This document shows positions 22,125 to 35,662 of a stretch of DNA of 37,611 nt, one piece after another. Position 1 is the stretch's first letter, and every line of letters starts with the position of its first letter. The DNA comes from an uncultured Candidatus Saccharibacteria bacterium (lineage in GTDB: Bacteria > Patescibacteriota > Saccharimonadia > Saccharimonadales > JAGQNJ01). The notes below the pieces were generated by a model, which had not been told where the DNA came from, searched no databases, and worked only from the letters and a program-made list of their open reading frames with translations. The DNA lies in NCBI GenBank assembly GCA_964617035.1, contig CAZTWB010000002.1, positions 1 through 37,611 on the forward strand, read 5' to 3'. The position numbers and the translations under genes were made by a program.

Positions 22125-22194
22125 ATTACAGGATTGGAGTATACAAAAAGAGACAAATGAGACACGAAACACATATTACCTGGTGTTTCATTTT
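22125..22194. repeat. Conserved intergenic element, copy A (core GAGACAAATGAGACACGAAACACA at 22150-22173)
   Basis: The 24-nt core is identical to 25833-25856. Flanking matches ATTACAGG (22125-22132 vs 25807-25814), ACAAAA, TATT and TTTCAT. Local hairpin GAAACAC(22166-22172)/GTGTTTC(22183-22189). Confidence 0.8.
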
Positions 22195-25469: not shown

Positions 25470-25688
25470 TTAATAGTTGACTGTTCGTGGTTGTGCGCCG
25501 TCAGCTGGGCCGATTAGTCCTTCGGCTTCCATTTGGTCTAGGATCTCCGCAGACTTTGCATAGCTGATTTTGAGATCGCGTTGCAGCAATGCTACTGAAG
25601 CTTGTTTCTTGAAGCCAATCAATTCTTTTGCTCGTCGATAGGTCTCATCGGGTGCGCAATTGTCCGCCGAGCCCCCATAATACGACAC
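25470..25688 (-). CDS. FtsK/SpoIIIE gamma (winged-helix) domain-only ORF: gene remnant or stand-alone protein
   Basis: DETYRRAKELI..KKQASVALLQRDLKISYAKSAEILDQMEAEGLIGPADGAQPRTV matches the FtsK C-terminal gamma domain. GTG start, with an in-frame TAG two codons upstream. No ATPase domain. Confidence 0.55.
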   Translation of the reverse strand: MSYYGGSADNCAPDETYRRAKELIGFKKQASVALLQRDLKISYAKSAEILDQMEAEGLIGPADGAQPRTVNY

Positions 25689-25732
25689 GGTCTAGGTCAT
25701 TTTGCAGGTGATTTATAAGAGGTAATAAATAG

Positions 25733-25787
25733 AAAAATGACCGGTCATAGGAACACGGTCTTTTTACCTCTTGCTGAGTTTGGCTCC
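25733..25787 (+). repeat. Direct repeat DR-L (att-like): copy of the tRNA-Asn 3' end (7 nt) plus its terminator/3' flank
   Basis: 25739-25787 is identical to 35546-35594 (49 nt). The match extends to 55 nt with one mismatch. Ends in TGGCTCC with no tRNA body beyond it. Confidence 0.85.
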
Positions 25788-25806: not shown

Positions 25807-25884
25807 ATTACAGGTGTCGCGAGGCACAAAATGAGACAAATGAGACACGAAACACACATATTTTTCATGTCTCGTTTTTGTGCC
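25807..25884. repeat. Conserved intergenic element, copy B (core at 25833-25856) with its own imperfect 16/17-nt inverted repeat
   Basis: Same 24-nt core as copy A. Arms GGCACAAAATGAGACA (25823-25838) and TGTCTCGTTTTTGTGCC (25868-25884) are near-complementary. Confidence 0.8.
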
Positions 25885-26036
25885 GGGTTTTGCGAATAAA
25901 TATCGCAACTTAACACGCACAATGATTAATGCCGATCAATTGTTAGATGCAGCTTATCCTTGCCTAGTTCCAAACTGCCCTTTTCGGGTCGGCATGATTG
26001 CATAAAATAAACTCAGGTGACATAGTATTGTTCATA

Positions 26037-26651
26037 ATGAAAAATGTCTTCATGCTACAAGGCTTCAGTAAAGATCTGGCATTCGATGACCCAAGTCTAG
26101 ATTTGCTTCGTGAAGCCATGGCCGAACACGATATTCAATTACATGGTGTTGAAAACGGCTGGAAGGATTATGGTATTAGAAGCTTTGGTATGCGTGCAGT
26201 TGAGCAATACCATGACTATCCGTACAAAGGGATACTTATTGGGCATTCGCTTGGTGCCTTGGCTGCTTTAAGTGTCCTGGAATTTATGCCAGTGCGACAT
26301 CTTGTACTTTGTTCGCCCTCAGCACTATTTAGTGAAGATATAAAATCGGGTCTCGACCCTCTGGTTGCCGTCCGTATTGGGAAAAAACGTATACAGGAGC
26401 TATCGAGCTTTTCAGTGGCAGAGGCTGTCTCTAGTGTTAATCGGCTCGGTATGCCCACTACTATAATGTTTGGAGAAAGAGAGCGAGTATTGCACCCTCG
26501 CCTGGTTTCTCGTAGTTGTGAGCTCGCGGACAAGATTGTAAACGCAACTCTTTTAGAAGTGCCTGGTGCCGGTCACTCCATAGGAGAAAATCCATATGCA
26601 TTTGAATTGTCGGTGGTTATGGGTGCTATTGCTGACAGTATCAACGACTGA
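26037..26651 (+). CDS. Alpha/beta-fold serine hydrolase (small, ~204 aa)
   Basis: Nucleophile elbow GHSLGA and C-terminal PGAGHS His context. ATG at 26037 is preferred over the TTG at 25998. Confidence 0.6.
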   Translation: MKNVFMLQGFSKDLAFDDPSLDLLREAMAEHDIQLHGVENGWKDYGIRSFGMRAVEQYHDYPYKGILIGHSLGALAALSVLEFMPVRHLVLCSPSALFSEDIKSGLDPLVAVRIGKKRIQELSSFSVAEAVSSVNRLGMPTTIMFGERERVLHPRLVSRSCELADKIVNATLLEVPGAGHSIGENPYAFELSVVMGAIADSIND

Positions 26652-26772: not shown

Positions 26773-27423
26773 CTAATTGATTTTCCACCATTCAACAGCC
26801 TTCATCCCTAGATTCAAAGGTGATATGTACTTTGCGGCTTCACGTGGGTCATCATTAATGCTTCCATCATACGCTCGTCCTGCATTCGAGAAGCGAGATC
26901 TGATGCTTTCTTTTAGTTTTCTGAATTCGACGCTCTCCTTATCAAATGGCAGTCGCGAACTAAAGCTTTGGACAGGCTGAAAAAACAAGAATGTAGTATT
27001 GGGCTCGTGAACGTGGCGAGGATTGTCGGCAGAATATAATGAGCTGAAAACAATAGTAAATAAGCGTTGCCCTGATATAGTTAACTGCCAGCCTGGATCT
27101 TCTATATTTTCAGTGAATAAAGCTTCATCGCTGGATCCATCATTTATTTTTAGTGCATGGTAGATGGACCTAAAGCCGGCGGCTAAAGAATTCAAATCAT
27201 TACCGATTACATTGTTCGAGAAAGCAACAGCAAGGCCATCTGGTGCCGTCGTGATACCTTCTTTGACATAGGAAGAAATATCTTCGTAAAGCCTCGTGGT
27301 TGTCTCAGATTCACTAAGATCACCACTAACGGGTCGTGCAAATGTGATTTCTGCTGATCTGGCAAATGGGCAGTATGTTTCGGACTTAATAGTTAGGAAT
27401 ATGTTATTTAGTTGTTCGCTCAT
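26773..27423 (-). CDS. YqcI/YcgG-family protein (family includes heme-dependent N-oxygenase-type enzymes)
   Basis: Colinear with the family landmarks: TYCPFAR (vs YPCYFG), WQLTISGQRLFTIVFSSLY..NPRH......FLFFQP, IRSRF...RAYD, REAAKYI. ATGA overlap with AlaRS-like-1 (27420-27423). Confidence 0.7.
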   Translation of the reverse strand: MSEQLNNIFLTIKSETYCPFARSAEITFARPVSGDLSESETTTRLYEDISSYVKEGITTAPDGLAVAFSNNVIGNDLNSLAAGFRSIYHALKINDGSSDEALFTENIEDPGWQLTISGQRLFTIVFSSLYSADNPRHVHEPNTTFLFFQPVQSFSSRLPFDKESVEFRKLKESIRSRFSNAGRAYDGSINDDPREAAKYISPLNLGMKAVEWWKIN

Positions 27424-28583
27424 AAAGAACTCTGCATTAATTGAAGTAAACTAGACTTTATGCCAAATGTTGCATGCAATTCAGCTGGAGATAGGTCCGG
27501 ATTTTTTGCTTTGGTAGTAGTAATATTAGATAGTATGCGACGCAATGCATTTTCCTCTGACACCACTGCCTCCGTTATGATTGCTGGATTAGCTGCGTTT
27601 TCCAAGAAATCACCCATAGCATCTTTTACGCTGACAAAATCACCCGATTGTAACCAGACTGTCTCGATAAGTGATCTAATCATCTTTCTGAGTGCATACC
27701 CGTGCTTTTTTTTGCTCGGTACTAACCCCTCTGCGGTTAGTTCGTCTATAACACAGCAGATGTTAGCCATATAATGAGCATCACCGTCTGTTATGCCTTC
27801 AAATTGAGATTTGAATTGATCGGATAGATTCCTCCAGGTTCGCATTGAATGTTCATTGTCCCCAGTTAGGGCCAGTTCCAACCTGCTCATCCCAAGGCCA
27901 ACATCAAAAGCGTTATACTCAAATTCTCGTAGTTCACCTTTTTCAGTAACACCATCTATATGAACAATACGCCCAAGCTGTATGCACTCAGATAGCTCAG
28001 GCTCATTTTGATACCCTGTCTCGGAAAACCACGCAATAATACCACGCCCGTGTAAGTCTCCCTCCCCAAAACTCCACTCATGCTGCATTGCGCCCGGGTC
28101 ATCAAATATACGGACCTGCTCAGCAGCCAATGACGATTCTGCAAGTGCAGCATTTAATGCATGGCCTCCTATCGATGAGAAAATTAGATTCTGCTTATCT
28201 AGTCCAAGAGCGTCGAGTGTGTCCAAGAAGTAGTTTACGGCGTCATCGTGACCAATCTCGAAAACACCACTGCCTAACATTTCAAATAGCGAGGTGTAAT
28301 TAGTATTTCTACGCGCTGCTTCTGGTGTACCGCCCGTACCGCCTAGGCGTAAGCACCTCTGAGATAGCGCAAAGTTAGTAAACGCTAGCTCCCCGGAAAA
28401 CATTGGTTTGAATGGTGTTATGGTTGCATTCGTGAACAACAGAGTGGGGTCTTCAATTACGAGTGGAAATGATTCGTGGATCTCAAACCCGTTGTCGCGG
28501 TGGTATTCAAGAAATGATGATCTTGCGGATTCTATGCTATTCACTCCATTCACACTCCGAATTAGTAAGTACGCCGTACTCAT
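27420..28583 (-). CDS. AlaRS-like class IIc catalytic-core paralog 1 (387 aa, divergent, no editing or C-Ala domains)
   Basis: DPTLLFTNATITPFKPMF, SQRCLRLGG, TSLFEMLGSG, DVGLGMSRLELAL and GLVPSKKKHGYALRKMIRSL align with the AlaRS motifs. The GDxGPCGPCxE and EIWNxVFMQ blocks are replaced (GEGDLHGRGIIAW; IQLGRIVHIDG). Confidence 0.75.
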   Translation of the reverse strand: MSTAYLLIRSVNGVNSIESARSSFLEYHRDNGFEIHESFPLVIEDPTLLFTNATITPFKPMFSGELAFTNFALSQRCLRLGGTGGTPEAARRNTNYTSLFEMLGSGVFEIGHDDAVNYFLDTLDALGLDKQNLIFSSIGGHALNAALAESSLAAEQVRIFDDPGAMQHEWSFGEGDLHGRGIIAWFSETGYQNEPELSECIQLGRIVHIDGVTEKGELREFEYNAFDVGLGMSRLELALTGDNEHSMRTWRNLSDQFKSQFEGITDGDAHYMANICCVIDELTAEGLVPSKKKHGYALRKMIRSLIETVWLQSGDFVSVKDAMGDFLENAANPAIITEAVVSEENALRRILSNITTTKAKNPDLSPAELHATFGIKSSLLQLMQSSL

Positions 28584-28651
28584 ACTATATCATAAATATA
28601 TGATACCTCAAAAAATCTTGCTTATCACTGATGAATTACATGTTAATTCTA

Positions 28652-29266
28652 TCAGGCTATTGTCCAGAGTTTGCCCTGACCTATTTTTTCACTTGAAGTG
28701 CTTATGTGCCATGCAGCAGATTCTCCTAGTGCAACAAAAGGCCGATATGAGCCATCTTCCGACCATATTTTCTTTGCTCTATTGAATGATTTTTCGTTTG
28801 CATGCACAAGTACGCCAACTGGGACGATACCCCAACCTTGCTTGAGCTCAAAAGAGCCACCGTCTTCGTCTATGTAAAATTCGGATAAGGCCTGTGCGCC
28901 GGCACTCAATCCAGCAACGTGCACTCCTCTGCTAATTGCTGCTCGAAGGTGCTCAACAAGCCCCCATTCTTTAAACACTCTCAGTAAATTCTCTGTATCA
29001 CCCCCGCCAATGTAAATAACAGATGCTGAATCCAGTACATTGATAGCAAACTCTTTACCTTTATCTACTGTTGGTACTATTACATTATACTGCTTTCCAA
29101 ATACCAACCTGATTGCGTCGGCGTAATCTGTGTTATCACTAGATGCAAACCCGATAAATACAAACGTTGAACCCTTAGGTGATAACGAAAGAATTTCTTC
29201 ATCAATTATCTTTGTTTCTCTATTTCTGAGTTCACCGCCACCGATTAGGTATATATTGCTTCTCAT
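28652..29266 (-). CDS. Peptidase S51 family (PepE / cyanophycinase-like serine peptidase)
   Basis: IYLIGGG ... VIYIGGGDTENLL ... HVAGLSAGAQAL (nucleophile Ser in GxSAGA). ATGA overlap with the upstream oxidoreductase (29263-29266). Confidence 0.8.
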   Translation of the reverse strand: MRSNIYLIGGGELRNRETKIIDEEILSLSPKGSTFVFIGFASSDNTDYADAIRLVFGKQYNVIVPTVDKGKEFAINVLDSASVIYIGGGDTENLLRVFKEWGLVEHLRAAISRGVHVAGLSAGAQALSEFYIDEDGGSFELKQGWGIVPVGVLVHANEKSFNRAKKIWSEDGSYRPFVALGESAAWHISTSSEKIGQGKLWTIA

Positions 29267-30714
29267 ATACTATCTCTTACAACAGGATTTAGGTTGTTAT
29301 TCATTTGGGCGTTAGACCTGCAGATAGCGCTCATTATTTTAACTGGTATTTCATGCGTGTCTATATTTGATTTTACGTTTTCTAGCGTAATCTGACCAGT
29401 CATGAAGTCGATAAACTCACGAATAATACGATATTTTGTGTTCTCGATTGTTAGCCGATGAGTCTCCCCTCTGTGTTCAAGGTCCTGTGATGATATCTTT
29501 ATATAGGGCTTACCCTCACCATACATACCTATGTTTCGGAATACGTAGATATCAAAGTGATTGTTACCCCCGACGTCAAACTCGTTAATGTTGTCGATGT
29601 CATGTTCGTGCTTGGATTGATAATTATGAATCTGGATGCATTGGAACGGACCTTGTTGGATAATGAACTGCTGATGTTTAACGCGGCCGTTACCTTTATA
29701 AAGATCTTCATTTGGTGGCGCCCAGGATCGTCTCGAGAAACTGCTGTGAAGGAGGTTAATTGAGATATTGCAAATATTAACACCTTGTTTCATTAAACGA
29801 ATTATACTGAACGCATCTATCTCTCCGTAATCGGTAACTTTATCTAGATACTGTTCGTTTGTAAGGCCTGTTTTTTGGAATTGGTTGCCGAAGTACCTAA
29901 TATAATCGTCCTCAGTAATGCAGACATCTAGGCCAGCTGGGTTAAGTGTTGAAGAAAGTACTTCTATCCCATCTGGTTGCTTTTCTGGTACGAGACTAGA
30001 CTGATACAATTGCCAGGCCATGTCAAAGAGATGATATCCACTATGTGATATTTTACCAAAACCATCTGAAAGTCCGTGCGATTCTTGGGTGAGGACTTCT
30101 TTTGGAAATCGCCAGGATCCATCCGCATGCATAATCTGCATTGATGTTATCGGAACATTAAATTTTTGCGTAGTCTCTGAAATTAGCTCCTTTACCTTGT
30201 CGAATCCCTTGTCGTATCTTCTCTGTACGTTGATTGAAAAGAGTGTCTGTTTAGTAGGCCGATAGGATTGATAGAGTTCAAGTAGTTCGTAATAATCACT
30301 CAAAAGGCCCTTAGCTTCAGTCGTGTCAACGCTAAGCTTCTTGCGTGCAGATATTGGCTTGTCCATGAGTATGTTCAGTCCATTACTAAGCGCCCACGCT
30401 GCGTATGCTTTATGCGCAGTAGGTTCTGTTGAGATGATTACTCCTTTAATGTCAAATTTTCTTACTAGTGTGTCCAGTTTTGCTTTAACGTGACTTGGAA
30501 CTCCAGTGCTCACATCAAATGGATTGAGATACATCATATCAAGTTTGTATTTTTGTTTTTTAAGATAATCGTCGATAGTATCTTTTTGACCCAAAAGATC
30601 AACTGCTGCGACTAGACGCACGGGGAGATTTAATGCAAACGTAAACAATGCTGGTGCATATATGCGCCTAGCGTGCGGGCCAAGACCGATGAGTAGTACG
30701 TTAGAAGTTTCCAT
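29263..30714 (-). CDS. Gfo/Idh/MocA-like NAD(P)-dependent oxidoreductase with an extended C-terminal domain
   Basis: Rossmann start VLLIGLGPHARRIY, then GVIISTEPTAHKAYAAWALSNGLNILMDKPIS (an EKP-type motif written DKP). The ORF opens at 30741; the ATG at 30714 fits the family N-terminus. Confidence 0.7.
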   Translation of the reverse strand: METSNVLLIGLGPHARRIYAPALFTFALNLPVRLVAAVDLLGQKDTIDDYLKKQKYKLDMMYLNPFDVSTGVPSHVKAKLDTLVRKFDIKGVIISTEPTAHKAYAAWALSNGLNILMDKPISARKKLSVDTTEAKGLLSDYYELLELYQSYRPTKQTLFSINVQRRYDKGFDKVKELISETTQKFNVPITSMQIMHADGSWRFPKEVLTQESHGLSDGFGKISHSGYHLFDMAWQLYQSSLVPEKQPDGIEVLSSTLNPAGLDVCITEDDYIRYFGNQFQKTGLTNEQYLDKVTDYGEIDAFSIIRLMKQGVNICNISINLLHSSFSRRSWAPPNEDLYKGNGRVKHQQFIIQQGPFQCIQIHNYQSKHEHDIDNINEFDVGGNNHFDIYVFRNIGMYGEGKPYIKISSQDLEHRGETHRLTIENTKYRIIREFIDFMTGQITLENVKSNIDTHEIPVKIMSAICRSNAQMNNNLNPVVRDSI

Positions 30715-30784
30715 TTTTATACTATAATAGCGGTAGTGCATTTAGGTGCAAAGAGCACGGAGCATACCTAAAATATCTGAAATA

Positions 30785-30793
30785 TGTTATAAT
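30785..30793 (+). promoter_or_regulatory. Extended -10 promoter element TGTTATAAT upstream of the oxygenase-like gene
   Basis: TGnTATAAT consensus read at 30785-30793, ~40 nt upstream of the ATG at 30834, in the divergent intergenic region. Confidence 0.4.
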
Positions 30794-30833
30794 ACAAGAT
30801 ATCACATTGCACAGGTTAGGACAATTATAGTTT

Positions 30834-31649
30834 ATGGCTAATGCAGAAAATCAATGGAACGTAGTACATTTGGGCCAGGAAGATTCCGAGCAAGCATGCG
30901 CATTATTGCCTGAATTGGCAAGGAATGAAATTGCGGCGCTAAAAATAGGCAAGTTTTTGTGCGATCAAGAGCTGGTAGTCATCAAAGCAAACGTGGTATC
31001 CAAAAACATAGCGTGGTATGAAAATAAGACAAATCAACAGGGTAGAATTGGCATAAACGCTACTGGATTTAGCCATCTTCCTTGTGGCAAGCAAATGTAT
31101 TTTGAGGCCACACCGAAAGCTGAACAAGAACGAGATGAGATATTCGAAGGGACTCAGAGCCCTATTCATAAAATAATTGAATTCTTTGGCAGTGGGTTTG
31201 ATGCAAAAACGGCTACAGAGCCCGAGCTAGCAGAAGCGAGATACTTCACGGGCCTAATTCGTGCAATGGGCGCCAAAAGTACACTACACTTTGATTATGC
31301 CCCAAAGCAGCTTCCTGGCTGGAGTGTCGCTAATGCGGATGAACAATTTGGTCTTGTTTTGTATCTCCAGATGCCAGAAACGGGCGGAGAGCTAAATATA
31401 TATGATCATTCATGGGCTCCAGAAGACGAATGCTTTAACAATGATCATGTTGAAAAAGGTACATTTGGGTTTACAGAAGGTTTCTTAGGTGACACGCAAT
31501 ATGCTTCAGTACTGCCGTCAGAAGGCGATCTCGTAGTATTTAAGACTCGGAACTTTCACCAGGTCGCCGAGATCAATTCCGACAAGCCAAGATTGGGTCT
31601 AACTACATTCATGTCGCAGCGTGGCAGTACTCTCTCTTTGTGGAGTTAG
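30834..31649 (+). CDS. Fe(II)/2-oxoglutarate-dependent oxygenase-like protein
   Basis: Candidate facial triad HxD...H (TLHFDYA ... RNFHQVAEI) and basic residue (PRLGLTTF) in the expected order. No stronger family signature recognised. Confidence 0.5.
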   Translation: MANAENQWNVVHLGQEDSEQACALLPELARNEIAALKIGKFLCDQELVVIKANVVSKNIAWYENKTNQQGRIGINATGFSHLPCGKQMYFEATPKAEQERDEIFEGTQSPIHKIIEFFGSGFDAKTATEPELAEARYFTGLIRAMGAKSTLHFDYAPKQLPGWSVANADEQFGLVLYLQMPETGGELNIYDHSWAPEDECFNNDHVEKGTFGFTEGFLGDTQYASVLPSEGDLVVFKTRNFHQVAEINSDKPRLGLTTFMSQRGSTLSLWS

Positions 31650-31657
31650 CTTGCTAA

Positions 31658-32482
31658 CTAACGATTGTATGAATCGAAGAAATTCTTGAATTTCTTCATT
31701 ACTTCATTGGTAACAATCCCCACCCTACCGTCACCTACAGCCGTCTCTGTTATTTTTGTAACTGGCATGACTTCTTTACCTGTAGCAGTAATAAAGACTT
31801 CGCTTGCACTCAGCAGTTCATCGACCGTGAAATCACGTACTTTCACTTTTACGGATAAATCTAGATCATTTAATATAACGCTGCGCGTAATACCTTCTAA
31901 AATTTTCGTTTTAGGAGTTGTGAGAATCCCATCTATTAAGGCAAAGATATTAGACCTTGTTCCTTCTCGTACAAAGTTGTTCGAAAAGTAAATAATCTCA
32001 TCAATATCATGTGGGGCTGCATTCATAGCACGAATTGCCTGTACATAGTTGGTTGTCTTGGCTTGTGGCTCGTATCGATCAAACTCGCTAAGCAAAATAT
32101 GTACGCCATTTATATAATCTTCAAGCGGACATAGTATTCGAGGTTCGCTGATGATAATAATTGTGGGTGTGTCCGCAGGTGTAAGTGTGCCAGATGGGCC
32201 TCCAGAAATAATCACGCGCATGACTATATCTGTGCTGCCTAGATTATTCGCATCTACAGTCTGTAGTACCCAGTCAGCGACCTGATGTTTTGACCAAGGT
32301 ATATCTAGTGAGATAGCCTGACAAGAATTAAATAGTCTATCAAGGTGTCTGTCCATCATAAATGGTCGACCCCTCGTAGTAATCATAAACTCAAAAGCAG
32401 CATAGCCACGTGAGTAGCCAAGGTCACGGGGAGATATCAGCAAATGGTCATCATTGACAAGATGGCCATTTAAAAAGTGCAT
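31658..32482 (-). CDS. Class IV (fold type IV) PLP aminotransferase (BCAT / D-amino-acid aminotransferase / ADC-lyase family)
   Basis: DLGYSRGYAAFE, catalytic Lys context QAKTTNY, EGTRSNIF, ILEGITR, and FITATGKEVMPV. ATG at 32482 is preferred; the ORF opens at 32506. Confidence 0.8.
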   Translation of the reverse strand: MHFLNGHLVNDDHLLISPRDLGYSRGYAAFEFMITTRGRPFMMDRHLDRLFNSCQAISLDIPWSKHQVADWVLQTVDANNLGSTDIVMRVIISGGPSGTLTPADTPTIIIISEPRILCPLEDYINGVHILLSEFDRYEPQAKTTNYVQAIRAMNAAPHDIDEIIYFSNNFVREGTRSNIFALIDGILTTPKTKILEGITRSVILNDLDLSVKVKVRDFTVDELLSASEVFITATGKEVMPVTKITETAVGDGRVGIVTNEVMKKFKNFFDSYNR

Positions 32483-32529
32483 GTTTATCATATAAATACT
32501 ATACACCAGGCCTGAGCTGATGTAGTGAC

Positions 32530-33849
32530 CTAAGAACGCAACGCGTGTTCGCGTTGGGCGTTGATATATTCGTCTTCGGGAAATATGACACCACCCCTAA
32601 TGCATGCTTCACGAACTAAATCTGCTGGAATGCCGTGAGTTGCGTGTAGCGTATGAACATCAGCTCCAGTAATCTCCCCTCTGTCAATAAAGGGTTTTAG
32701 TAGTTTGGTCCCGCGCGTGAGTACCTTAGAGAATGCTTGCTGCTCGATTCGAAGTATTTCCCTAGTTTCCTTTTGACTACTAGTCGCACCAGGTATTTTG
32801 GGGAGGTGTTCCTGTGCAGCTTCCTGGTAATCCGTTAGTTTTTCCTGGGTTATGTCGTGTTGGGCCATGATGCTCATGCTACGGCGTAGTAGTCTCCTTA
32901 ATACATAGGCTGCTGCTTTGTTGGCTGGCGTCACTCCAGACTGAAGTAGAATTTCCGATGTGCGGACATGATCAGTAATGATACGGGCACTACGTTCGTT
33001 GTGAGTATCAGCAAAAACGGTGTCATAGACAGGCAGCCACCGATCGATTTGATGAATACTTGGTGCATCTTGTAATACCATGGCAAACCGCTCTAGCCCG
33101 GCACCTCCATCTACGCTACGTGATTTTAGCGGAATTATTTCCCCTTCTTGATTCATGAAATACTGCATGAAAACACCAGCATTCCATATTTCTATATGTT
33201 GACCATTCCGAAGCTGCTGATCAATGTCATCGGAATCTGCAAAATCTTGGCCACGATCATAGAATACTTCTGTGCATGGCCCACAAGGTCCGCTGTCACC
33301 GGCAGGACCCCAGAAATTATCTTTGGCAGGAAGTGCAACAATACGTTCATTTGGCAAGAAACGTTGCCATGCTGCGATGGATTCAGTATCTCCGGGGATT
33401 CCCCTAGTCTCCTCTTCGCTATTAAGTACGGAGGCGGACAGACGTTCTGGTTCAAGACCGAAACCCTCAGTAATTAGTTCGTATGCGAGTTCTATTGCGC
33501 GCTCTTTGCTGAACTCTGGTCCAAACTGCCACGACCCCATCATATTAAAGCTAGTGCCGTGATGTGGGTCGCCTATGTCATCAATGTCACCAGTACGTAT
33601 GCAGTTTTGGACATTAGTGAGTAGGTTTGACGGAGGGGTTTTGTCACCAGTAAAATAAGGCTTCATTGGAGCCATGCCGGAATTTATTAGGAGCAATGTC
33701 GGATCGTTGTCTGGAATTATACCGCTATCTGGGTAATGGGTATAGCCACGTGATGTATAGAAATCAATATATATTTCTTGAATCTCATCAGTTGTCCGGA
33801 ACGTTGGTTTTTGCTCGCTCAACTCTTGCACTCCTATCTTTACCACCAA
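32530..33849 (-). CDS. AlaRS-like class IIc catalytic-core paralog 2 (439 aa, motifs intact, no editing or C-Ala domains)
   Basis: DPTLLLINSGMAPMKPYF, NCIRTGD, DNFWGPAGDSGPCGPCTEVFYD (GDSGPCGPC = nt 33274-33300), IEIWNAGVFMQ, DGGAGLERFAMVLQ, and ANKAAAYVLRRLLRR. Start is ambiguous (TTG 33849, GTG 33846, or TTG 33822 with GGAG 8 nt upstream). Confidence 0.85.
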   Translation of the reverse strand: MVVKIGVQELSEQKPTFRTTDEIQEIYIDFYTSRGYTHYPDSGIIPDNDPTLLLINSGMAPMKPYFTGDKTPPSNLLTNVQNCIRTGDIDDIGDPHHGTSFNMMGSWQFGPEFSKERAIELAYELITEGFGLEPERLSASVLNSEEETRGIPGDTESIAAWQRFLPNERIVALPAKDNFWGPAGDSGPCGPCTEVFYDRGQDFADSDDIDQQLRNGQHIEIWNAGVFMQYFMNQEGEIIPLKSRSVDGGAGLERFAMVLQDAPSIHQIDRWLPVYDTVFADTHNERSARIITDHVRTSEILLQSGVTPANKAAAYVLRRLLRRSMSIMAQHDITQEKLTDYQEAAQEHLPKIPGATSSQKETREILRIEQQAFSKVLTRGTKLLKPFIDRGEITGADVHTLHATHGIPADLVREACIRGGVIFPEDEYINAQREHALRS

Positions 33850-33917: not shown

Positions 33918-35266
33918 TCAGGGCTGATCTGCAAAAAACACCCGCAGTTTTCTGTAGATTTCAACCATAGCGAGGGTGTCTAGTTTACAGTACTCTATGA
34001 GATCGTTCAGGATTTGGTCCTTTTGCTCAGCTCGTTTGCCGTCCAGTATGGCTTCCATCCAGAGTCGTTGCGCCGATCCGCCCTCTTGGATACCGAGTTC
34101 TTTGTAGGATAACTCAGGACAAAGTACAGGCAGCACCTGTTTGATACTGGCACTGCCTTCAAAGCGTGGGTCATCGTACCATTTTTGCTTGAATGGAATC
34201 ATTAGGTCTACGATGCGGTCGTTTATGGCTTCCATCGCTTCTTTGTATTCTGGCAATAATTCACCAAGCTCGGTATTGCGAGCCTTCTCGAATCCTTCAT
34301 ACCATACAATCACACTCCCGGTGTCGCCAATGTCTTTAATAAGCTGTTGGGCAAGTGGTCGAGCAGGGTCAGAGTTATCGCGATGCAAGTATTCTTTTTG
34401 GATGAGTTTGGTATCGGGTGATTTGAGAATATATAACGAATATTGAAATGGTATCTGCTGATATGGGCGGTGACCGTCGAAGTGTGGAATGAGCCCAGAC
34501 ATTGTTTCGTAATCGAGAAAATATAGCGGATATTTCAGCTCATCCAAGAACTGCTTGATCTCATCGTGCTGAATGGCTGGTTGCAGGTCTGTCGGATAAT
34601 CCACTGGTTCTTGCGGCACGATGTTAGCGTAGATCTTTAGCCAATCATATCTTGATCCAAGCTTGGCCAGCTCTGGATTTGGATCGGGCATTGTTAGTCG
34701 CTTTGCAACTTCGAGTGCCATAGGCATATATTTGGCAGTCAGCTCGCCTTTGGCGCGAACTTTTTCAGTTACGTCCTCAGTGTGGGTAATCTCATTAGCC
34801 TTTATCTCACCTTGGCGAACATATTTGTTGTTGACATGTATAACGTAGATGTTACGAACTTTCAACCCCGAGCCCTCTAATACTGCTGTCTGAAATGCAA
34901 GGTCGAACTCGTGCTCAGTCTTGACGCTAGTACTGGCTTTGATCTCGTATAAATCTACTTCTTTATCTCCGACAAAACTGACGATGTCGCATATACAGGT
35001 AAAATCTTGCCATTCGAAACGTGGCTGGAATAAGACTTGGTCGCCTCGTGTGATAGCGTCTTGGGTGCGTTGCGGTAATGATAGGTATTCATCATAATCT
35101 GAAAAACCAAGGGCTACACCTTCAGGAAATAACGACTCAGCATATGGCTCAAACTGATGCCCTGCGTCAAACATTGCCTGGGTATTTTTTCACCTTGCGA
35201 AATATGACATCAGTACAGATAAACTGCAGCCACTGGCAACTTATGCAGATTATGTATTGTCATCAT
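33918..35266 (-). pseudogene. DUF2779-family paralog (copy 2) with a disrupted 5' end
   Basis: The 418-aa ORF (33918-35174) is roughly 70% identical by eye to residues 38-449 of copy 1. Upstream, an ATGATG at 35261-35266 opens a 18-codon ORF in another frame (MMTIHNLHKLPVAAVYLY-stop). An in-frame TGA sits at 35190-35192, and there is a 1-nt deletion relative to copy 1. Confidence 0.6.
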
Positions 35267-35539
35267 CAGACGCAAAGTTGATAACAGAACTAGTTCAAGG
35301 TATTCATACAAAGTTTGCTCTCAAGGGCGGCAAAATCGGTATCGCTTAACAGTTTATAAATACTGATCTTGACCGATAATTTTTGTTGATTGTGATAGGG
35401 ACCGGACACGGACTAAATTAACAGGGATAATGAAGTTTGGCACGGTCTCGGAACCCGGTCGCTAAACTAGCTGCTGAATCGTCATAATGTGGTACGGTCT
35501 TGGTTGTTTTGAGGGTCAATTAACAGAGGTGAAACTAAC

Positions 35540-35572
35540 AAAAAAGACCGGTCATAGGAACACGGTCTTTTT
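35540..35572. terminator. Bidirectional intrinsic-terminator-like hairpin downstream of tRNA-Asn
   Basis: A6-GACCG-(12-nt loop)-CGGTC-T5. On the minus strand the stem extends to AAGACCG/CGGTCTT and is followed by T6. An identical copy lies in DR-L (25733-25765). Confidence 0.5.
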
Positions 35573-35594
35573 ACCTCTTGCTGAGTTTGGCTCC
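35540..35594 (+). repeat. Direct repeat DR-R (att-like), overlapping the tRNA-Asn 3' end
   Basis: See DR-L. Positions 35588-35594 (TGGCTCC) are the complement of the tRNA 3' terminal GGAGCCA. Confidence 0.85.
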
Positions 35595-35662
35595 GGGGAT
35601 AGGATTCGAACCTACGACCTAGTGGTTAACAGCCACCCGCTCTACCGCTGAGCTACCCCGGA
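35588..35662 (-). tRNA. tRNA-Asn (anticodon GTT), CCA encoded
   Basis: Folded by eye: acceptor TCCGGGG/CCCCGGA (7 bp), D stem GCTC/GAGC, anticodon stem GGTGG/CCACT with loop CTGTTAA, T stem GTAGG/CCTAT with TTCGAAT loop, discriminator G, and CCA. 75 nt. Confidence 0.92.

What the first reader, a model, noticed from the sequence alone, without database searches (positions are those of the whole stretch)
26773..33849. Compact non-NRPS biosynthetic-looking cluster built around two editing-domain-less AlaRS paralogs
Seen in sequence: seven tightly packed genes. On the minus strand, AlaRS-like-2 (32530-33849) is followed after a 23-nt gap by a class IV PLP aminotransferase (31658-32506). An Fe(II)/2OG-oxygenase-like gene (30834-31649) converges on it, 8 nt from the aminotransferase stop. 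A second minus-strand operon runs Gfo/Idh/MocA-like oxidoreductase (29263-30741), S51 peptidase (28652-29266, ATGA overlap), AlaRS-like-1 (27420-28583), then a YqcI/YcgG protein (26773-27423, ATGA overlap). Both AlaRS-like proteins end after the class-II catalytic core and helical tRNA-recognition region (439 and 387 aa; bacterial AlaRS is roughly twice that). Both lack the editing and C-Ala domains. Established knowledge: free-standing aaRS catalytic-core paralogs act as amino-acid ligases outside translation (SerRS-like amino acid:carrier-protein ligases, AsnA, HisZ, PoxA/GenX). From memory, AlaRS-like genes (acmD/acmF) occur in the ascamycin cluster. The YqcI/YcgG family is reported to include the heme protein DcsA (arginine N-hydroxylation in D-cycloserine biosynthesis). 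S51 peptidases (PepE, cyanophycinase) cleave Asp-X or isopeptide-type bonds. Inference: a pathway that tailors an amino acid (transamination, hydroxylation, possibly N-oxygenation, redox) and ligates alanine or another small amino acid to it. The S51 peptidase could serve for maturation, self-protection or salvage. No NRPS, PKS, RiPP precursor or ATP-grasp gene is present, so rule-based BGC detectors would probably miss it. The cluster also sits on a putative tRNA-associated island.
Basis: partly seen in the sequence, partly recalled or inferred. Interest (0 to 1): 0.88.

Follow-up and report, generated by a model that had tools for sequence, protein, structure and literature searches.

The report
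Paired AlaRS-like alanylation gene island
A small gene island found only in ultra-small (CPR/Patescibacteria) bacteria pairs two shortened copies of the alanine-tRNA charging enzyme with a peptidase and three tailoring enzymes, and it most likely makes, and can uncap, an alanine-capped small molecule the way the antibiotic ascamycin is made.

Summary
All seven genes, their coordinates, gaps, ATGA overlaps and family assignments were confirmed.

The cluster is not a chance grouping. A five-gene core recurs in about 14 distinct Saccharimonadales, Levybacteria, Nomurabacteria and other Patescibacteria loci. The core is a class IV aminotransferase, a WelO5-like HxD oxygenase, a Gfo/Idh/MocA dehydrogenase, an S51 peptidase and the divergent ~370-aa AlaRS-like-1. 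AlaRS-like-2, YqcI/YcgG and a neighbouring alpha/beta-hydrolase are accessory genes.

AlaRS-like-2 keeps every checked alanine-activation residue. AlaRS-like-1 has lost E183, E209 and N212 but keeps a conserved tRNA-recognition domain. That is the architecture of AcmF, the 370-aa Ala-tRNA-dependent alanyl transferase of ascamycin biosynthesis.

In 7 of 7 sampled contexts, ~430-aa AlaRS-like-2 homologs sit next to a short AlaRS-like partner. An S51 or S66 peptidase is nearby in 6 of 7, and the tailoring genes vary.

Best reading (about 0.45):
- an AcmD/AcmF/AcmE-like module that adds alanine from tRNA and can remove it;
- a hydroxylase, dehydrogenase and transaminase cassette that installs the acceptor amine.

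The product is unknown. AlaRS-like-2 is not a split housekeeping AlaRS. This is a new variant of a known kind, unreported in the searched literature.

The parts
32530..33849 (-). AlaRS-like-2 (family F2). It is ~430-439 aa and consists of the class II AlaRS aminoacylation domain plus the helical tRNA-recognition domain, with no editing or C-Ala domain. It is a near-canonical alanine-activating core. Proposed role: a dedicated (or product-resistant) Ala-tRNA(Ala) supplier, analogous to AcmD. It is an accessory part of the cluster.
   Evidence: Family hits: Pfam tRNA-synt_2c 313.8 bits. TIGR00344 316 bits is below the 457 cut-off, and NF002436 293 bits is below 529.

Active site: R69, H86, F90, W170, GPCGPCTE183, E209, N212, V214, D235, G237 and R242 are kept in 116 of 116 family members. 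The 4-residue motif-2 loop deletion is shared with a genuine CPR AlaRS.

Context: adjacent to a short partner in 7 of 7 sampled contexts. Degraded to a 63-codon remnant in L018.
31658..32506 (-). Fold-type IV (class IV) PLP aminotransferase, a core gene. Proposed role: converts the keto intermediate into the acceptor amine.
   Evidence: Pfam Aminotran_4 135.9 bits. It lies below every NCBIfam equivalog cut-off (BCAT, DAAT, ADCL). The best PDB sequence hits are archaeal BCATs and Bacillus D-amino-acid aminotransferase at E about 1e-35 to 1e-32. It is present in all core loci.
30834..31649 (+). WelO5-like Fe(II)/2-oxoglutarate oxygenase with an HxD...H facial triad, which predicts a hydroxylase. 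It is a core gene and always lies on the strand opposite to its neighbours.
   Evidence: Pfam WelO5 71.4 bits and 2OG-FeII_Oxy_3 34.9 bits. The only PDB sequence hits are WelO5/WelO15-type enzymes. H152-x-D154 and H242 are invariant in 13 orthologs. It is conserved in all core loci.
29263..30741 (-). Long (~485-492 aa) Gfo/Idh/MocA NAD(P)-dependent dehydrogenase, a core gene. Proposed role: oxidises a secondary alcohol to a ketone ahead of transamination.
   Evidence: Pfam GFO_IDH_MocA 25 bits. The AF2 model has pLDDT 86.9. Foldseek top hits are glucuronide-3-dehydrogenase 8tdi, scyllo-inositol dehydrogenase 5yab, DgpA, RgNanOx and GenD2 (E 4e-15 to 3e-13). G19-x-G21 and D127-K128-P129 are invariant. 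Its stop overlaps the S51 start as ATGA.
28652..29266 (-). S51 (PepE/cyanophycinase-type) serine peptidase, a core gene that sits immediately upstream of AlaRS-like-1 in every locus that carries it. Proposed role: removes the alanyl cap, functionally analogous to AcmE or MccF.
   Evidence: Pfam Peptidase_S51 83 bits. The nucleophile motif GLSAGA aligns with the PepE motif GWSAGA. S121 and H164 are invariant in 12 orthologs. The S51-then-F1 order is kept even where the cassette is rearranged (L005).
27420..28583 (-). AlaRS-like-1 (family F1). It is 367-387 aa and strongly divergent, with the AlaRS catalytic fold plus tRNA-recognition domain. It is the core, signature gene. Proposed role: an Ala-tRNA-dependent alanyl transferase like AcmF (370 aa).
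   Evidence: Family and fold: Pfam tRNA-synt_2c 81 bits. About 98 90%-identity clusters, all ~367-387 aa and all CPR, followed by a score gap from 289 down to 64 bits before true AlaRS. AF2 pLDDT 88.2. Foldseek top hit is the E. coli AlaRS catalytic fragment 3hxu, TM 0.69.

Active site: strand-for-strand mapping gives E183 to I, E209 to Q202, N212 to R205 (invariant). R69, W170, D235, G237 and R242 are kept.

tRNA domain: the helical domain is conserved at 0.63 against 0.70 for the catalytic domain, with K292, R299, K300 and R303 conserved.

Rarity: only 22 50%-identity representatives at E<=1e-30 among 1.84 billion.
26773..27423 (-). YqcI/YcgG-family protein, a putative thiolate-ligated heme N-hydroxylase. 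It is an accessory tailoring gene, present in 6 of about 14 loci.
   Evidence: Pfam YqcI_YcgG 32.9 bits. It is present in the window and in L006, L009, L012, L013 and L018. Cys18-Pro-Phe-Ala is invariant. The family chemistry (heme ligated by Cys44, guanidine N-hydroxylation) comes from PMC12866846. Its start overlaps the AlaRS-like-1 stop as ATGA.
25998..26651 (+). Small alpha/beta-fold hydrolase (217 aa) at the far end of the island. Possible role: a second deacylase or esterase (AcmE is an alpha/beta-hydrolase).
   Evidence: Pfam Abhydrolase_6 27.4 bits. Orthologs at 56-70% identity sit adjacent to the cluster in L006, L009 and L018. It lies inside the direct-repeat-bounded segment.
33918..35174 (-). 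DUF2779 / Cas4-RecB-like nuclease-domain protein between AlaRS-like-2 and tRNA-Asn. It is island cargo and probably not biosynthetic.
   Evidence: Pfam DUF2779 139.8 bits, Cas_Cas4 19.7 bits. A paralog at 70% identity lies at 9971-11320. A 31%-identity homolog lies near the cluster in L005.
35588..35662 (-). tRNA-Asn(GTT), the island's anchor. It is not a functional partner of the AlaRS-like proteins.
   Evidence: ARAGORN and Rfam, 71.6 bits. The same tRNA-Asn flanks the cluster in L001, L006, L009 and L018. Other loci sit next to tRNA-Ser, -His, -Tyr or -Gln, and none sits next to tRNA-Ala.
35456..35594 (.). Right copy of the 139-nt imperfect direct repeat. It comprises the last 7 nt of tRNA-Asn, its terminator hairpin and about 80 nt more.
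   Evidence: the repeat finder family D1, 76% identity overall, spacing 9807 nt. The alignment shows a run of about 57 nt that is almost perfectly identical, starting at GGAGCCA.
25649..25787 (.). Left copy of the 139-nt direct repeat, marking the far boundary of the ~9.8-kb island.
   Evidence: This repeat is not found in the relatives' loci.

Best explanation
This is a horizontally mobile accessory island of Patescibacteria (the window is Saccharimonadales-like). It encodes a small-molecule pathway with two modules.

**Module A: installing the amine (inferred).**
1. The WelO5-like Fe/2OG hydroxylase adds a hydroxyl.
2. The Gfo/Idh/MocA dehydrogenase oxidises it to a ketone.
3. The class IV transaminase converts the ketone to an amine.

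The net conversion is C-H or C-OH to C=O to C-NH2 on a salvaged scaffold. The scaffold is unknown. It could be an amino-acid side chain, or a sugar, cyclitol or nucleoside hydroxyl.

**Module B: adding and removing alanine (by analogy with the experimentally characterised AcmD/AcmF/AcmE system of ascamycin).**
- AlaRS-like-2 activates alanine and charges tRNA(Ala). Where it is absent, the housekeeping AlaRS does this.
- The catalytically remodelled AlaRS-like-1 binds Ala-tRNA through its retained tRNA-recognition domain. It transfers the alanyl group onto the acceptor amine, which sits in the former adenylate pocket.
- The S51 peptidase, and possibly the alpha/beta-hydrolase, can hydrolyse that alanyl amide. 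This would serve activation, self-protection or recycling.

**Lineage-specific additions.** YqcI/YcgG (heme N-hydroxylase), an FAD monooxygenase or an APH-type kinase act as tailoring or resistance add-ons.

**Likely product.** An N-alanyl-capped 'pro-drug' antimetabolite.

**Shown versus inferred.** Gene content, conservation, folds, the active-site residue pattern and the island context are shown. Every catalytic step and the product are inferred.
For: 1. **Conservation.** The five-gene core recurs in all loci whose F1 is at least 45% identical to the window's, across Saccharimonadales, Levybacteria, Nomurabacteria and other Patescibacteria; only L017 lacks the S51 gene. It behaves as two sub-modules: AT4-2OG-GFO and S51-F1 stay together when the order is rearranged (L005/L016).
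2. **Asymmetry of the two AlaRS paralogs.**
   - F2 keeps R69, E183, E209, N212, V214, D235, G237 and R242 in 116 of 116 members.
   - F1 keeps R69, W170, D235, G237 and R242, but has I/V at position 183, Q at 209 and an invariant R at 212.
   - The confident AF2 model places F1 strands 177-186, 201-214 and 225-231 one-to-one on the E. coli strands, which supports that alignment register.
3. **F1's tRNA-recognition domain is under purifying selection.** Mean column identity is 0.63 against 0.70 for the catalytic domain. The acceptor-stem helix region 261-300 reaches 0.72-0.80, with conserved K292, R299, K300 and R303.
4. **Precedent** (PMC12945691; PMC4257720).
   - AcmF is a 370-aa AlaRS-like protein with only the aminoacylation and tRNA-recognition domains. 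It lacks adenylation residues (N219Q, D232E).
   - It transfers Ala from Ala-tRNA(Ala), made by AcmD, onto an amine held in the adenylate site.
   - AcmE is a hydrolase that removes the alanine.
   - F1 has the same length and architecture.
5. **Generality.** In 7 of 7 sampled F2 contexts, a short divergent AlaRS-like partner (367-402 aa) is adjacent. An S51 or S66 (MccF-family) peptidase is present in 6 of 7, while the tailoring genes differ.
6. **The dehydrogenase.** Its closest structures are secondary-alcohol 3-dehydrogenases of sugars and cyclitols. These include GenD2, which works with a transaminase to turn OH into NH2.
7. **The oxygenase.** It has an invariant HxD...H triad.
8. **The peptidase.** S51 keeps its Ser and His.
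9. **Resistance-like neighbour.** APH-type kinases sit beside the cluster in L003, L005 and L012. This is typical of self-resistance in antibiotic producers (established knowledge).
Against: - No biochemical data exist for any protein of this family.
- The F1 active-site mapping depends on the alignment. hhalign gave a different register in the 170-215 region, in which an acidic residue would align with E183.
- F1 still has the motif-2 and motif-3 arginines and D235, so residual adenylation cannot be excluded.
- Direct sequence similarity between F1 and AcmF could not be tested, because no AcmF sequence was available.
- The window F1 has K where the G3:U70-reading Asn lies (N in 62 of 88 family members). 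The partner Asp is not conserved in F1 or F2. tRNA(Ala) specificity is therefore not assured.
- F2 is absent from most clusters, so the module must work without it.
- Homologs of the dehydrogenase at ~50% identity occur with SHMT, TPP-enzyme and alanine-racemase genes and without any AlaRS-like gene. Module A chemistry may therefore be amino-acid metabolism of another kind.
- S51 peptidases are not known to cleave N-alanyl amides.
Confidence: 0.45

Rival explanations
1. Both AlaRS-like proteins are tRNA-independent, ATP-dependent amino-acid ligases, in the manner of AsnA, PoxA or the amino-acid:carrier-protein ligases. They adenylate alanine or another small amino acid and ligate it directly onto the tailored amino acid, giving a di- or tripeptide-like product.
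For: - F2 has a complete adenylation site.
- F1 retains R69, R242, D235 and G237.
- Under the hhalign register, an acidic residue (E169 of F1; E in 70 and D in 17 of 88 members) aligns with E183.
- Some partner types (F1b in L007 and L008) keep E183, E209, N212 and D235 and could adenylate.
- No tRNA(Ala) gene is associated with any cluster.
Against: - Both proteins keep the whole helical tRNA-recognition domain, and it is conserved. tRNA-independent aaRS paralogs such as AsnA and HisZ have typically lost their tRNA-binding parts (established knowledge).
- The structure-guided register gives F1 I, Q and R at positions 183, 209 and 212.
- The only characterised protein of this architecture, AcmF, is tRNA-dependent and does not adenylate (PMC12945691).
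Confidence: 0.2
2. AlaRS-like-2 is primarily a self-resistance enzyme. The product is an alanyl-adenylate or Ala-tRNA 3'-end mimic, for example an N-alanyl aminonucleoside. It would inhibit the housekeeping AlaRS or translation, and the extra editing-less AlaRS core is insensitive to it. AlaRS-like-1 makes the inhibitor and S51 detoxifies it.
For: - Duplicate aaRS genes are the classic resistance marker of aaRS-inhibitor clusters. SbzA is both a resistance copy and a transferase (PMC12945691).
- AcmF's acceptor is an adenosine analogue held in the adenylate site.
- The dehydrogenase resembles sugar 3-dehydrogenases, including GenD2. A Gfo/Idh/MocA enzyme plus a transaminase is how 3'-amino-3'-deoxyadenosine is made for puromycin (Pur10/Pur4; recalled from memory, not checked).
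- Sister cluster types carry S66/MccF-family peptidases, dCTP-deaminase-like proteins, HIT proteins, and methyltransferase plus PLP-decarboxylase pairs. These are reminiscent of microcin C mccD/E/F.
- A YqcI/YcgG gene occurs in the Yersinia mcc-like operon (PMC4010828).
Against: - F2 is missing or decayed in most clusters that keep F1. That is hard to reconcile with an essential immunity gene unless S51 suffices.
- No nucleoside-specific enzyme is recognisable in the window cluster.
- A fold-type IV transaminase acting on a keto-nucleoside is unprecedented.
- This reading is compatible with, rather than exclusive of, the best explanation.
Confidence: 0.2
3. The cluster belongs to primary or cell-envelope metabolism rather than to a secreted bioactive compound. 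Examples would be synthesis and alanylation of a diamino or D-amino acid for peptidoglycan cross-bridges, alanylation of teichoic acid, or salvage of host-derived peptides. In that reading S51 is a dipeptidase and the aminotransferase makes D-amino acids.
For: - The aminotransferase scores about equally against D-amino-acid aminotransferases and BCATs.
- Homologs of the dehydrogenase sit with SHMT and alanine racemase in other CPR genomes.
- One F2 cluster lies next to a Mur ligase (L007). L023 and L024 lie near PBP and MreBCD genes.
- Ala-tRNA is a known donor for peptidoglycan bridges (established knowledge; PMC2922099).
Against: - The distribution is very sparse: 12 loci found among 185,579 species representatives, and 22 50%-identity clusters among 1.84 billion proteins.
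- The cluster has a tRNA-flanked island location with different tRNA anchors and direct-repeat boundaries.
- Genes are decayed in some genomes.
- The tailoring cassettes and APH-type kinases are variable.
- All of this fits an accessory, exchangeable trait, not envelope housekeeping.
Confidence: 0.1
4. AlaRS-like-2 is the genome's housekeeping AlaRS, split from a separately encoded editing/C-Ala protein, and its position next to the enzymes is coincidental.
For: The catalytic residues are fully canonical. N-terminal AlaRS fragments are known to aminoacylate tRNA(Ala) (established knowledge). The rest of the window genome could not be inspected.
Against: - F2 scores below both alaS equivalog cut-offs (316 against 457; 293 against 529). 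A genuine 623-aa CPR AlaRS with an editing domain passes both (641.5 and 505.2 bits) and lies beside the cluster in L017.
- F2 is only 28-29% identical to that enzyme.
- F2 is reduced to 63 codons in L018 and absent from the L001, L003 and L005 clusters.
- F2 is always adjacent to a short partner (7 of 7 contexts).
- It lies inside a repeat-bounded island.
- No tRNA_SAD or AlaX gene is present among the window ORFs scanned.
Confidence: 0.03

Closest known systems
AcmD / AcmF / AcmE of the ascamycin cluster (Streptomyces sp. JCM9888 / 80H647)
   Same: - Two AlaRS-family genes sit in one small-molecule cluster together with a hydrolase.
- One paralog is catalytically canonical (AcmD; here AlaRS-like-2).
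- The other is a ~370-aa protein made only of the aminoacylation fold and the tRNA-recognition domain, with altered adenylation residues (AcmF, 370 aa; here AlaRS-like-1, 367-387 aa).
- The hydrolase can remove the alanyl cap (AcmE; here S51 and possibly the alpha/beta-hydrolase).

Sources: PMC12945691 and PMC4257720.
   Different: - AcmD is a full-length 871-aa AlaRS. AlaRS-like-2 lacks the editing and C-Ala domains.
- The substitutions differ. AcmF has N-to-Q and D-to-E. F1 has N-to-R, E-to-Q and E-to-I and keeps the Asp.
- AcmE is a secreted alpha/beta-hydrolase, not an S51 peptidase.
- The rest of the acm cluster (sulfate activation, sulfatases, radical SAM) has no counterpart here, and the tailoring set here has no counterpart there.
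- The host is a CPR bacterium, not an actinomycete.
- Sequence relatedness between F1 and AcmF was not testable.
Canonical bacterial alanyl-tRNA synthetase (E. coli AlaRS catalytic fragment, PDB 3HXU; short CPR form NF002436)
   Same: The fold and domain order of the N-terminal ~440 residues are the same (Foldseek TM 0.69 for F1; phmmer E 1e-60 for F2). F2 keeps all checked alanine and ATP site residues.
   Different: - Neither protein has an editing or C-Ala domain.
- Both are below the alaS equivalog cut-offs.
- F1 has lost the GPCGPCTE strand motif, E209 and N212.
- Both are encoded on an accessory island.
Microcin C-type and other 'Trojan-horse' aminoacyl-nucleotide systems (mccB-F; MccF = S66 peptidase)
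   Same: - The logic is an aminoacyl group joined by an amide-type bond to a carrier or warhead, plus a dedicated serine peptidase for immunity or processing.
- Sister CPR clusters that contain F2 and a partner carry S66 peptidases and methyltransferase plus PLP-decarboxylase pairs.
- A YqcI/YcgG gene occurs in the Yersinia mcc-like operon (PMC4010828).
   Different: - There is no MccB (ThiF-like) adenylyltransferase, no precursor peptide and no exporter in the window.
- The window's peptidase is S51, not S66.
- Nothing in the window shows that a nucleotide is involved.
OH to C=O to NH2 dehydrogenase/transaminase pairs (GenD2/GenS2 of gentamicin; WbpB/WbpE; Pur10/Pur4 of puromycin)
   Same: A Gfo/Idh/MocA dehydrogenase is encoded next to an aminotransferase. 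GenD2 is among the structural neighbours of the window enzyme.
   Different: - The partner transaminase here is fold-type IV, not the fold-type I DegT/GenS2 type.
- The dehydrogenase is ~130 residues longer than its structural neighbours.
- An additional Fe/2OG hydroxylase is present.
- The WbpB/WbpE and Pur10/Pur4 comparisons are from memory.
YqcI/YcgG heme N-hydroxylases (AglA, DcsA, ChmN, GntA)
   Same: It is a Pfam family member with an invariant N-terminal Cys. This matches the thiolate heme ligand described for AglA (PMC12866846).
   Different: The Pfam score is only 33 bits. The substrate-binding residues were not compared. The gene is accessory, present in 6 of about 14 clusters.

Membership tests
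Housekeeping alanine--tRNA ligase (alaS) | Scores above the curated equivalog cut-off of TIGR00344 (457 bits) or NF002436 (529 bits) | tested here: not met
   F2 scores 316 and 293 bits. F1 scores 72 and 28 bits. As a control, the 623-aa AlaRS of L017 scores 505 and 641 bits.
Housekeeping alanine--tRNA ligase (alaS) | Editing (tRNA_SAD / HxxxH-CxxxH) domain present in cis | tested here: not met
   Neither protein has a PF07973 hit, and both end after the helical domain.
Housekeeping alanine--tRNA ligase (alaS) | Alanine and ATP site residues conserved (R69, E183, E209, N212, V214, D235, G237, R242; E. coli numbering) | tested here: met
   This is met for F2 (116 of 116 members). It is not met for F1, which has I/V at 183, Q at 209 and R at 212 in the structure-guided register. 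hhalign gives an alternative register.
Housekeeping alanine--tRNA ligase (alaS) | Sole, indispensable AlaRS of the genome | tested here: inconclusive
   The window genome beyond 37.6 kb is not available. Indirect evidence is against it. F2 has decayed in L018 and is absent from most clusters. A genuine AlaRS is present in L017.
AcmF-type Ala-tRNA-dependent alanyl transferase | ~370-aa protein made only of the AlaRS aminoacylation domain plus the tRNA-recognition domain | tested here: met
   F1 is 367-387 aa. Its AF2 model matches the AlaRS catalytic fragment over both domains. AcmF is 370 aa.
AcmF-type Ala-tRNA-dependent alanyl transferase | Loss or alteration of residues needed for alanyl-adenylate formation (AcmF: N219Q, D232E) | tested here: inconclusive
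   In F1, the N212 equivalent is an invariant Arg and the E209 equivalent is Gln, but D235 is kept. The related partner types F1d and F1e keep N212 and often have D235E, as AcmF does. The result depends on the alignment register.
AcmF-type Ala-tRNA-dependent alanyl transferase | Encoded with an alanine-charging AlaRS and a de-alanylating hydrolase | tested here: met
   F2, S51 and an alpha/beta-hydrolase are all in the window island. The pairing recurs in 7 of 7 F2 contexts.
AcmF-type Ala-tRNA-dependent alanyl transferase | Sequence homology to AcmF closer than to canonical AlaRS | not testable with these tools
AcmF-type Ala-tRNA-dependent alanyl transferase | Uses Ala-tRNA(Ala), not ATP plus Ala, as the acyl donor | not testable with these tools
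   This is a biochemical property. The only supporting observation is the conserved tRNA-recognition domain.
Peptidase family S51 | Pfam PF03575 above cut-off, with the Ser nucleophile in a GxSAG elbow and a catalytic His | tested here: met
   83 bits against a cut-off of 23.9. GLSAGA aligns with PepE's GWSAGA. S121 and H164 are invariant. The acidic third member of the triad was not pinned down.
Gfo/Idh/MocA oxidoreductases | N-terminal Rossmann fold with GxGxxA and the (E/D)KP motif, followed by a C-terminal alpha/beta domain | tested here: met
   Pfam gives 25.0 bits against a cut-off of 24. G19, G21, A24 and D127-K128-P129 are invariant. Foldseek probability is 1.00 to many family structures, with TM up to 0.79 normalised on the target.
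Fe(II)/2OG halogenases of the WelO5 type | The facial-triad carboxylate is replaced by Gly or Ala (HxG/A) | tested here: not met
   H152-F-D154 is invariant. The fold family is WelO5-like, but a hydroxylase-type triad is present.
Branched-chain or D-amino-acid aminotransferase (equivalogs) | Score above the NCBIfam equivalog cut-off | tested here: not met
   The best scores are 158 bits against 363 (BCAT subfamily) and 137.7 against 277 (DAAT). The protein is a fold-type IV member of undefined specificity.
tRNA-anchored genomic island | Adjacent to a tRNA gene, bounded by a direct repeat that includes the tRNA 3' end, and variably present among relatives | tested here: met
   No integrase gene lies inside the window island, so mobility may be ancient or supplied in trans.

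The most novel reading that the evidence does not exclude
Patescibacteria (CPR) carry a previously unrecognised, diversified class of biosynthetic gene clusters. Its signature is a pair of truncated AlaRS paralogs, one a canonical charger and one a remodelled Ala-tRNA-dependent transferase, plus an S51 or S66 peptidase. This signature is combined with interchangeable tailoring cassettes: hydroxylase/dehydrogenase/transaminase in the window, and radical-SAM, AKR, carbamoyltransferase, dCTP-deaminase-like or methyltransferase/decarboxylase sets elsewhere. The clusters would make alanyl-capped 'Trojan-horse' antimetabolites, possibly aminoacyl-nucleoside mimics that target translation, which these episymbionts use against hosts or competitors. 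AcmF would then be the lone characterised outlier of a much wider enzyme family.
Probability: 0.3. Interest if true: 0.85.

Novelty: new variant of a known kind. Interest (0 to 1): 0.68.

Why it matters
- **Natural products in CPR bacteria.** CPR/Patescibacteria have minimal genomes and are thought to make almost no natural products. Rule-based detectors would not flag this cluster, because it has no NRPS, PKS, RiPP or ATP-grasp gene.
- **A wider enzyme class.** If the AcmF analogy holds, tRNA-dependent AlaRS-derived transferases are not a Streptomyces curiosity. They would be a recurrent enzyme class with a recognisable genomic signature: a short AlaRS-like gene, a ~430-aa AlaRS core and an S51 or S66 peptidase. 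That signature could be used for genome mining.
- **Testable enzymology.** The family offers small (~370 aa), well-folding candidates for the chemo-enzymatic N-aminoacylation of amines.
- **Episymbiont biology.** It gives a concrete handle on how episymbiotic ultra-small bacteria might chemically interact with their hosts.
- **Annotation.** It warns against counting such genes as alaS when scoring the completeness of CPR genomes.

Tried and rejected
- **Split housekeeping AlaRS: rejected.** The grounds were sub-threshold equivalog scores, decay in L018, obligate pairing with a partner, and a genuine 623-aa AlaRS in L017.
- **Halogenase reading of the WelO5-like oxygenase: rejected.** The HxD triad is invariant.
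- **A dedicated tRNA partner in the clusters: rejected.** The flanking tRNAs differ between loci (Asn, Ser, His, Tyr, Gln) and none is tRNA-Ala. They are integration anchors.
- **Rfam scan of the window:** only the tRNA was found.
- **Phage origin:** a tblastn search with F1 against 50,697 phage records gave only ordinary alaS hits at about 25% identity.
- **Motif-2 loop deletion in F2 as a special adaptation: rejected.** The genuine CPR AlaRS of L017 has the same deletion.
- **hhalign of F1 against F2/canonical profiles** gave a different register in the 170-215 region. I preferred the register supported by pairwise phmmer and by the AF2 strand positions, but the ambiguity stands.
- **Retrieving the primary AlaRS active-site paper failed**. 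The roles of E183 and E209 rest on my own knowledge of class II synthetases. The roles of N212 and D235 rest on the review PMC12945691.
- **Same repeat boundary in relatives:** it is absent there, so the repeat is window-specific.
- **Full-length alaS in the window genome:** this could not be tested. Only 37.6 kb is available, and the tools do not give whole genomes.
- **Literature:** searches for CPR paired AlaRS-like clusters returned nothing relevant.

Full report
**1. The observation**

The 23-nt and 8-nt gaps follow from those coordinates. Both ATGA overlaps were read directly: GFO stop/S51 start and AlaRS-like-1 stop/YqcI start.

All Pfam assignments hold: YqcI_YcgG, tRNA-synt_2c twice (81 and 314 bits), Peptidase_S51, GFO_IDH_MocA (weak, 25 bits), WelO5/2OG-FeII_Oxy_3 and Aminotran_4. 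Neither AlaRS-like protein has an editing-domain hit. Both end after the helical tRNA-recognition domain.

The weak Gfo/Idh/MocA call was confirmed by structure. The AF2 model has pLDDT 86.9. Its best PDB neighbours are glucuronide-3-dehydrogenase, scyllo-inositol dehydrogenase, DgpA, RgNanOx and GenD2. The GxG and DKP motifs are invariant.

**2. Where it comes from and how conserved it is**

Homologs of AlaRS-like-1 (family F1 below) form a tight family of about 98 90%-identity clusters. All are 367-387 aa and 42-79% identical to the window protein. Where named, they come from Saccharimonadales, Levybacteria, Nomurabacteria or 'Patescibacteria group'. Scores then drop from 289 to 64 bits before ordinary AlaRS appears.

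An exhaustive HMMER profile search of 1.84 billion representatives found only 22 at E<=1e-30. A pattern scan of 185,579 species genomes found 12 loci.

I annotated 20 fetched loci by BLAST against the window proteins, together with the gene tables.
- The order AT4 / 2OG (opposite strand) / GFO / S51 / F1 is present in every locus whose F1 is at least 45% identical to the window's. L017 lacks S51.
- In L005/L016 the two sub-modules are swapped, but each stays intact (S51-F1 and AT4-2OG-GFO).
- YqcI is present in 6 loci.
- AlaRS-like-2 (family F2) is present in the window, L006 and L009.
- A 217-aa alpha/beta-hydrolase (window 25998-26651) also travels with the cluster in L006, L009 and L018.
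- Other loci carry an FAD monooxygenase (L001/L010) or an APH-type kinase (L003/L011, L012, L005) instead.

They consist of a five-gene core plus accessories.

**3. Island context**

tRNA-Asn(GTT) lies 1.7 kb from F2. The same tRNA flanks the cluster in L001, L006, L009 and L018. Other lineages have tRNA-Ser, -His, -Tyr or -Gln next to it, and none has tRNA-Ala.

In the window, a 139-nt imperfect direct repeat (25649-25787 and 35456-35594) brackets 9.8 kb. The repeat starts with the last 7 nt of the tRNA and its terminator. The bracketed segment contains the alpha/beta-hydrolase, the seven genes and a DUF2779/Cas4-like gene. This supports the 'tRNA-associated island' remark. The tRNAs are anchors, not substrates.

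**4. The two AlaRS paralogs are not alike**

I aligned 88 F1 and 116 F2 sequences to the E. coli catalytic fragment. My recalled E. coli sequence was verified against PDB 3HXU.

*F2* keeps R69, H86, F90, W170, the GPCGPCTE183 strand, E209, W211, N212, V214, D235, G237 and R242 in every member. Its only oddity is a 4-residue deletion in the motif-2 loop, which the genuine 623-aa AlaRS of L017 shares.

*F1* keeps R69, W170, D235, G237 and R242 but is rebuilt between them.
- The confident AF2 model (pLDDT 88.2) has strands at 177-186, 201-214 and 225-231. These correspond one-to-one to the three E. coli strands.
- This supports the phmmer register: E183 to I/V, E209 to Q202, N212 to an invariant R205, V214 to V207.
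- hhalign proposed another register, so this point is likely rather than certain.

Foldseek places the model on the AlaRS catalytic fragment over both domains (TM 0.69). The helical domain of F1 is nearly as conserved as the catalytic one (0.63 against 0.70). It is most conserved in the stretch that corresponds to the acceptor-stem-binding helix, where basic residues are conserved.

**5. The precedent**

The literature search turned up a 2026 review (PMC12945691) and the original cluster paper (PMC4257720) on ascamycin.
- AcmD (871 aa) is an AlaRS that charges tRNA(Ala).
- AcmF (370 aa) is an AlaRS-like protein with only the aminoacylation and tRNA-recognition domains. It lacks key adenylation residues (N219Q, D232E). 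It transfers alanine from Ala-tRNA(Ala) to the sulfamate nitrogen of dealanylascamycin, which sits in the adenylate pocket.
- AcmE is a hydrolase that removes the alanine.

The window carries the same three roles: a canonical charger, a remodelled ~370-aa partner and a hydrolase. This is a resemblance of architecture and logic. Homology of F1 to AcmF could not be tested.

**6. The pairing is general**

I looked up the neighbourhoods of seven F2 homologs spread over the family, 39-81% identical to the window protein. In all seven, a short divergent tRNA-synt_2c gene (367-402 aa) is adjacent; it is split in one decayed locus. In six of the seven, an S51 or S66 peptidase is nearby. The genes in between differ:

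| Loci | Genes accompanying the F2 + partner pair |
|---|---|
| Window, L006 | the window cassette |
| L007, L008, L025 | aldo-keto reductase, radical-SAM-like protein and an unknown protein |
| L023 | two radical-SAM enzymes |
| L024 (L020 is the same type without F2) | carbamoyltransferase, two methyltransferases, two dCTP-deaminase-like proteins, PLP decarboxylase and S66 |
| L026 | methyltransferase, S66 and a truncated class II tRNA-synt_2 core |

The partners are heterogeneous, at 16-38% identity between types.
- All partner types except F1b replace the GPCGPCTE strand, and F1, F1d and F1e do so with an FWxEWxFG...GxG motif.
- F1d and F1e keep E209 and N212 and often carry D235E, as AcmF does.
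- F1b keeps all four residues.

The two-AlaRS-plus-peptidase unit thus looks like a portable module attached to different tailoring chemistry.

**7. Is F2 the housekeeping enzyme?**

The evidence says no.
- It fails both alaS equivalog thresholds. The L017 enzyme, which has an editing domain, passes both and lies directly beside the cluster.
- F2 is only 28-29% identical to that enzyme.
- In the 817-kb Saccharibacteria contig behind L018, only the last 63 codons of F2 remain next to tRNA-Asn, while the rest of the cluster is intact.
- Most clusters lack F2 altogether.

The rest of the window genome could not be examined, so the presence of another alaS there is inferred.

**8. What the tailoring genes say**

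- The oxygenase is WelO5-like with an invariant HxD...H triad, so it should hydroxylate rather than halogenate.
- The dehydrogenase resembles secondary-alcohol 3-dehydrogenases of sugars and cyclitols. GenD2 among them works with a transaminase to convert OH into NH2.
- The transaminase is fold-type IV. It lies between BCATs and D-amino-acid transaminases and below every equivalog cut-off.
- The most economical chemistry is hydroxylation, oxidation and transamination to create an amine, which F1 then alanylates.
- YqcI/YcgG enzymes are thiolate-heme guanidine N-hydroxylases (PMC12866846). The window protein keeps an invariant N-terminal Cys. This hints that some products carry a guanidine.
- Homologs of the dehydrogenase at ~50% identity occur with SHMT, a TPP enzyme and alanine racemase, without AlaRS-like genes. 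An amino-acid scaffold therefore remains plausible.

The scaffold is unresolved.

**9. Verdict**

The best mechanistic model is tRNA-dependent alanyl transfer by AlaRS-like-1, with AlaRS-like-2 as charger and/or resistance copy, rather than two free-standing ligases. Confidence in that model is about 0.45. It rests on architecture, residue patterns, conservation and one characterised precedent, with no biochemistry.

Nothing in the searched literature describes these CPR clusters. I rate it a new variant of a known kind, with substantial interest (0.68).

Noticed in passing
window 25649-25787 and 35456-35594: A 139-nt imperfect direct repeat (76% identity overall; the first ~57 nt are almost perfectly identical). 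It begins with the last 7 nt of tRNA-Asn and its terminator hairpin. It brackets a 9.8-kb segment that holds the whole cluster plus an alpha/beta-hydrolase and a DUF2779 gene. There is no integrase inside the segment. The repeat is absent from relatives' loci.
   Followed up: yes
window 9971-11320 and 33918-35174: Two paralogous DUF2779 / Cas4-RecB-like nuclease-domain genes, 70% identical at the protein level. One lies next to a GmrSD-type gene and the other between AlaRS-like-2 and tRNA-Asn. A 31%-identity homolog also lies near the cluster in L005. Their function is unknown; defence or mobility is possible.
   Followed up: partly
window 344-9963: A defence-gene neighbourhood: a type I restriction-modification system (HsdR 344-2716, HsdS 2729-4018, HsdM 4852-6312), a DUF3800 gene, a RadC-like JAB gene (7296-7937) and a GmrSD-family restriction endonuclease (8131-9963).
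   Followed up: no
L007, L008, L023, L024, L020, L025, L026 (other Patescibacteria contigs): At least four further cluster types are built on the same ~430-aa AlaRS core plus a short AlaRS-like partner. Their tailoring sets include AKR with a radical-SAM-like protein, two radical-SAM enzymes, or carbamoyltransferase with dCTP-deaminase-like proteins, methyltransferases and a PLP decarboxylase. They usually carry an S51 or S66 (MccF-family) peptidase. L026 also has a truncated class II tRNA-synt_2 (Asp/Asn/Lys-type) core of 369 aa.
   Followed up: partly
L014: 5626-11134 and 11878-17386: The whole unit (tRNA-His plus the five-gene core) is present twice in tandem with a 6252-bp period and identical BLAST scores. 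This is either a real tandem duplication or an assembly artefact of a circular or repeated element.
   Followed up: no
L018: 5152-5340; L025: 6231-10872: Signs of decay. In L018 only the last 63 codons of AlaRS-like-2 survive next to tRNA-Asn. In the complete genome CP064996.1 (L025), the AKR, S51 and partner AlaRS-like genes are fragmented while the ~430-aa AlaRS core is intact.
   Followed up: partly
L017: 14441-16312: A genuine short-form AlaRS (623 aa, with an editing domain; NF002436 641 bits) lies directly beside the cluster's aminotransferase, in the position AlaRS-like-2 occupies elsewhere. That locus lacks S51.
   Followed up: yes
L021: 6752-11549; L022: 8001-13336: Homologs of the long Gfo/Idh/MocA protein at about 50% identity sit in a different conserved CPR operon with an SHMT-family PLP enzyme and a TPP-dependent enzyme. 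An alanine racemase or an SDR is sometimes added. The pathway is unknown.
   Followed up: no
window 22143-22176 and 25826-25859: A 34-nt intergenic sequence (ACAAAA[A/T]GAGACAAATGAGACACGAAACACA[T/C]AT) is repeated at 94% identity. The second copy lies just inside the left island boundary, upstream of the alpha/beta-hydrolase gene. It may be a regulatory element.
   Followed up: no
window 36011-37366: A 451-aa ORF with an N-terminal hydrophobic segment, no Pfam hit and internal repeats (49-nt repeat at 36839 and 37007, 90% identity; the protein motif 'IGGDGLNSSW' recurs). It is probably a CPR surface protein.
   Followed up: no
window 12690-14801: A 703-aa protein made of two tandem alpha/beta-hydrolase domains; the internal 57-nt repeat at 12701 and 13493 reflects the duplication. 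It is followed by assorted genes: an anthrone-oxygenase-like gene, a Ham1-like gene, a cytochrome b561-molybdopterin oxidoreductase fusion, an MFS transporter and cytochrome bd (15565-21961).
   Followed up: no
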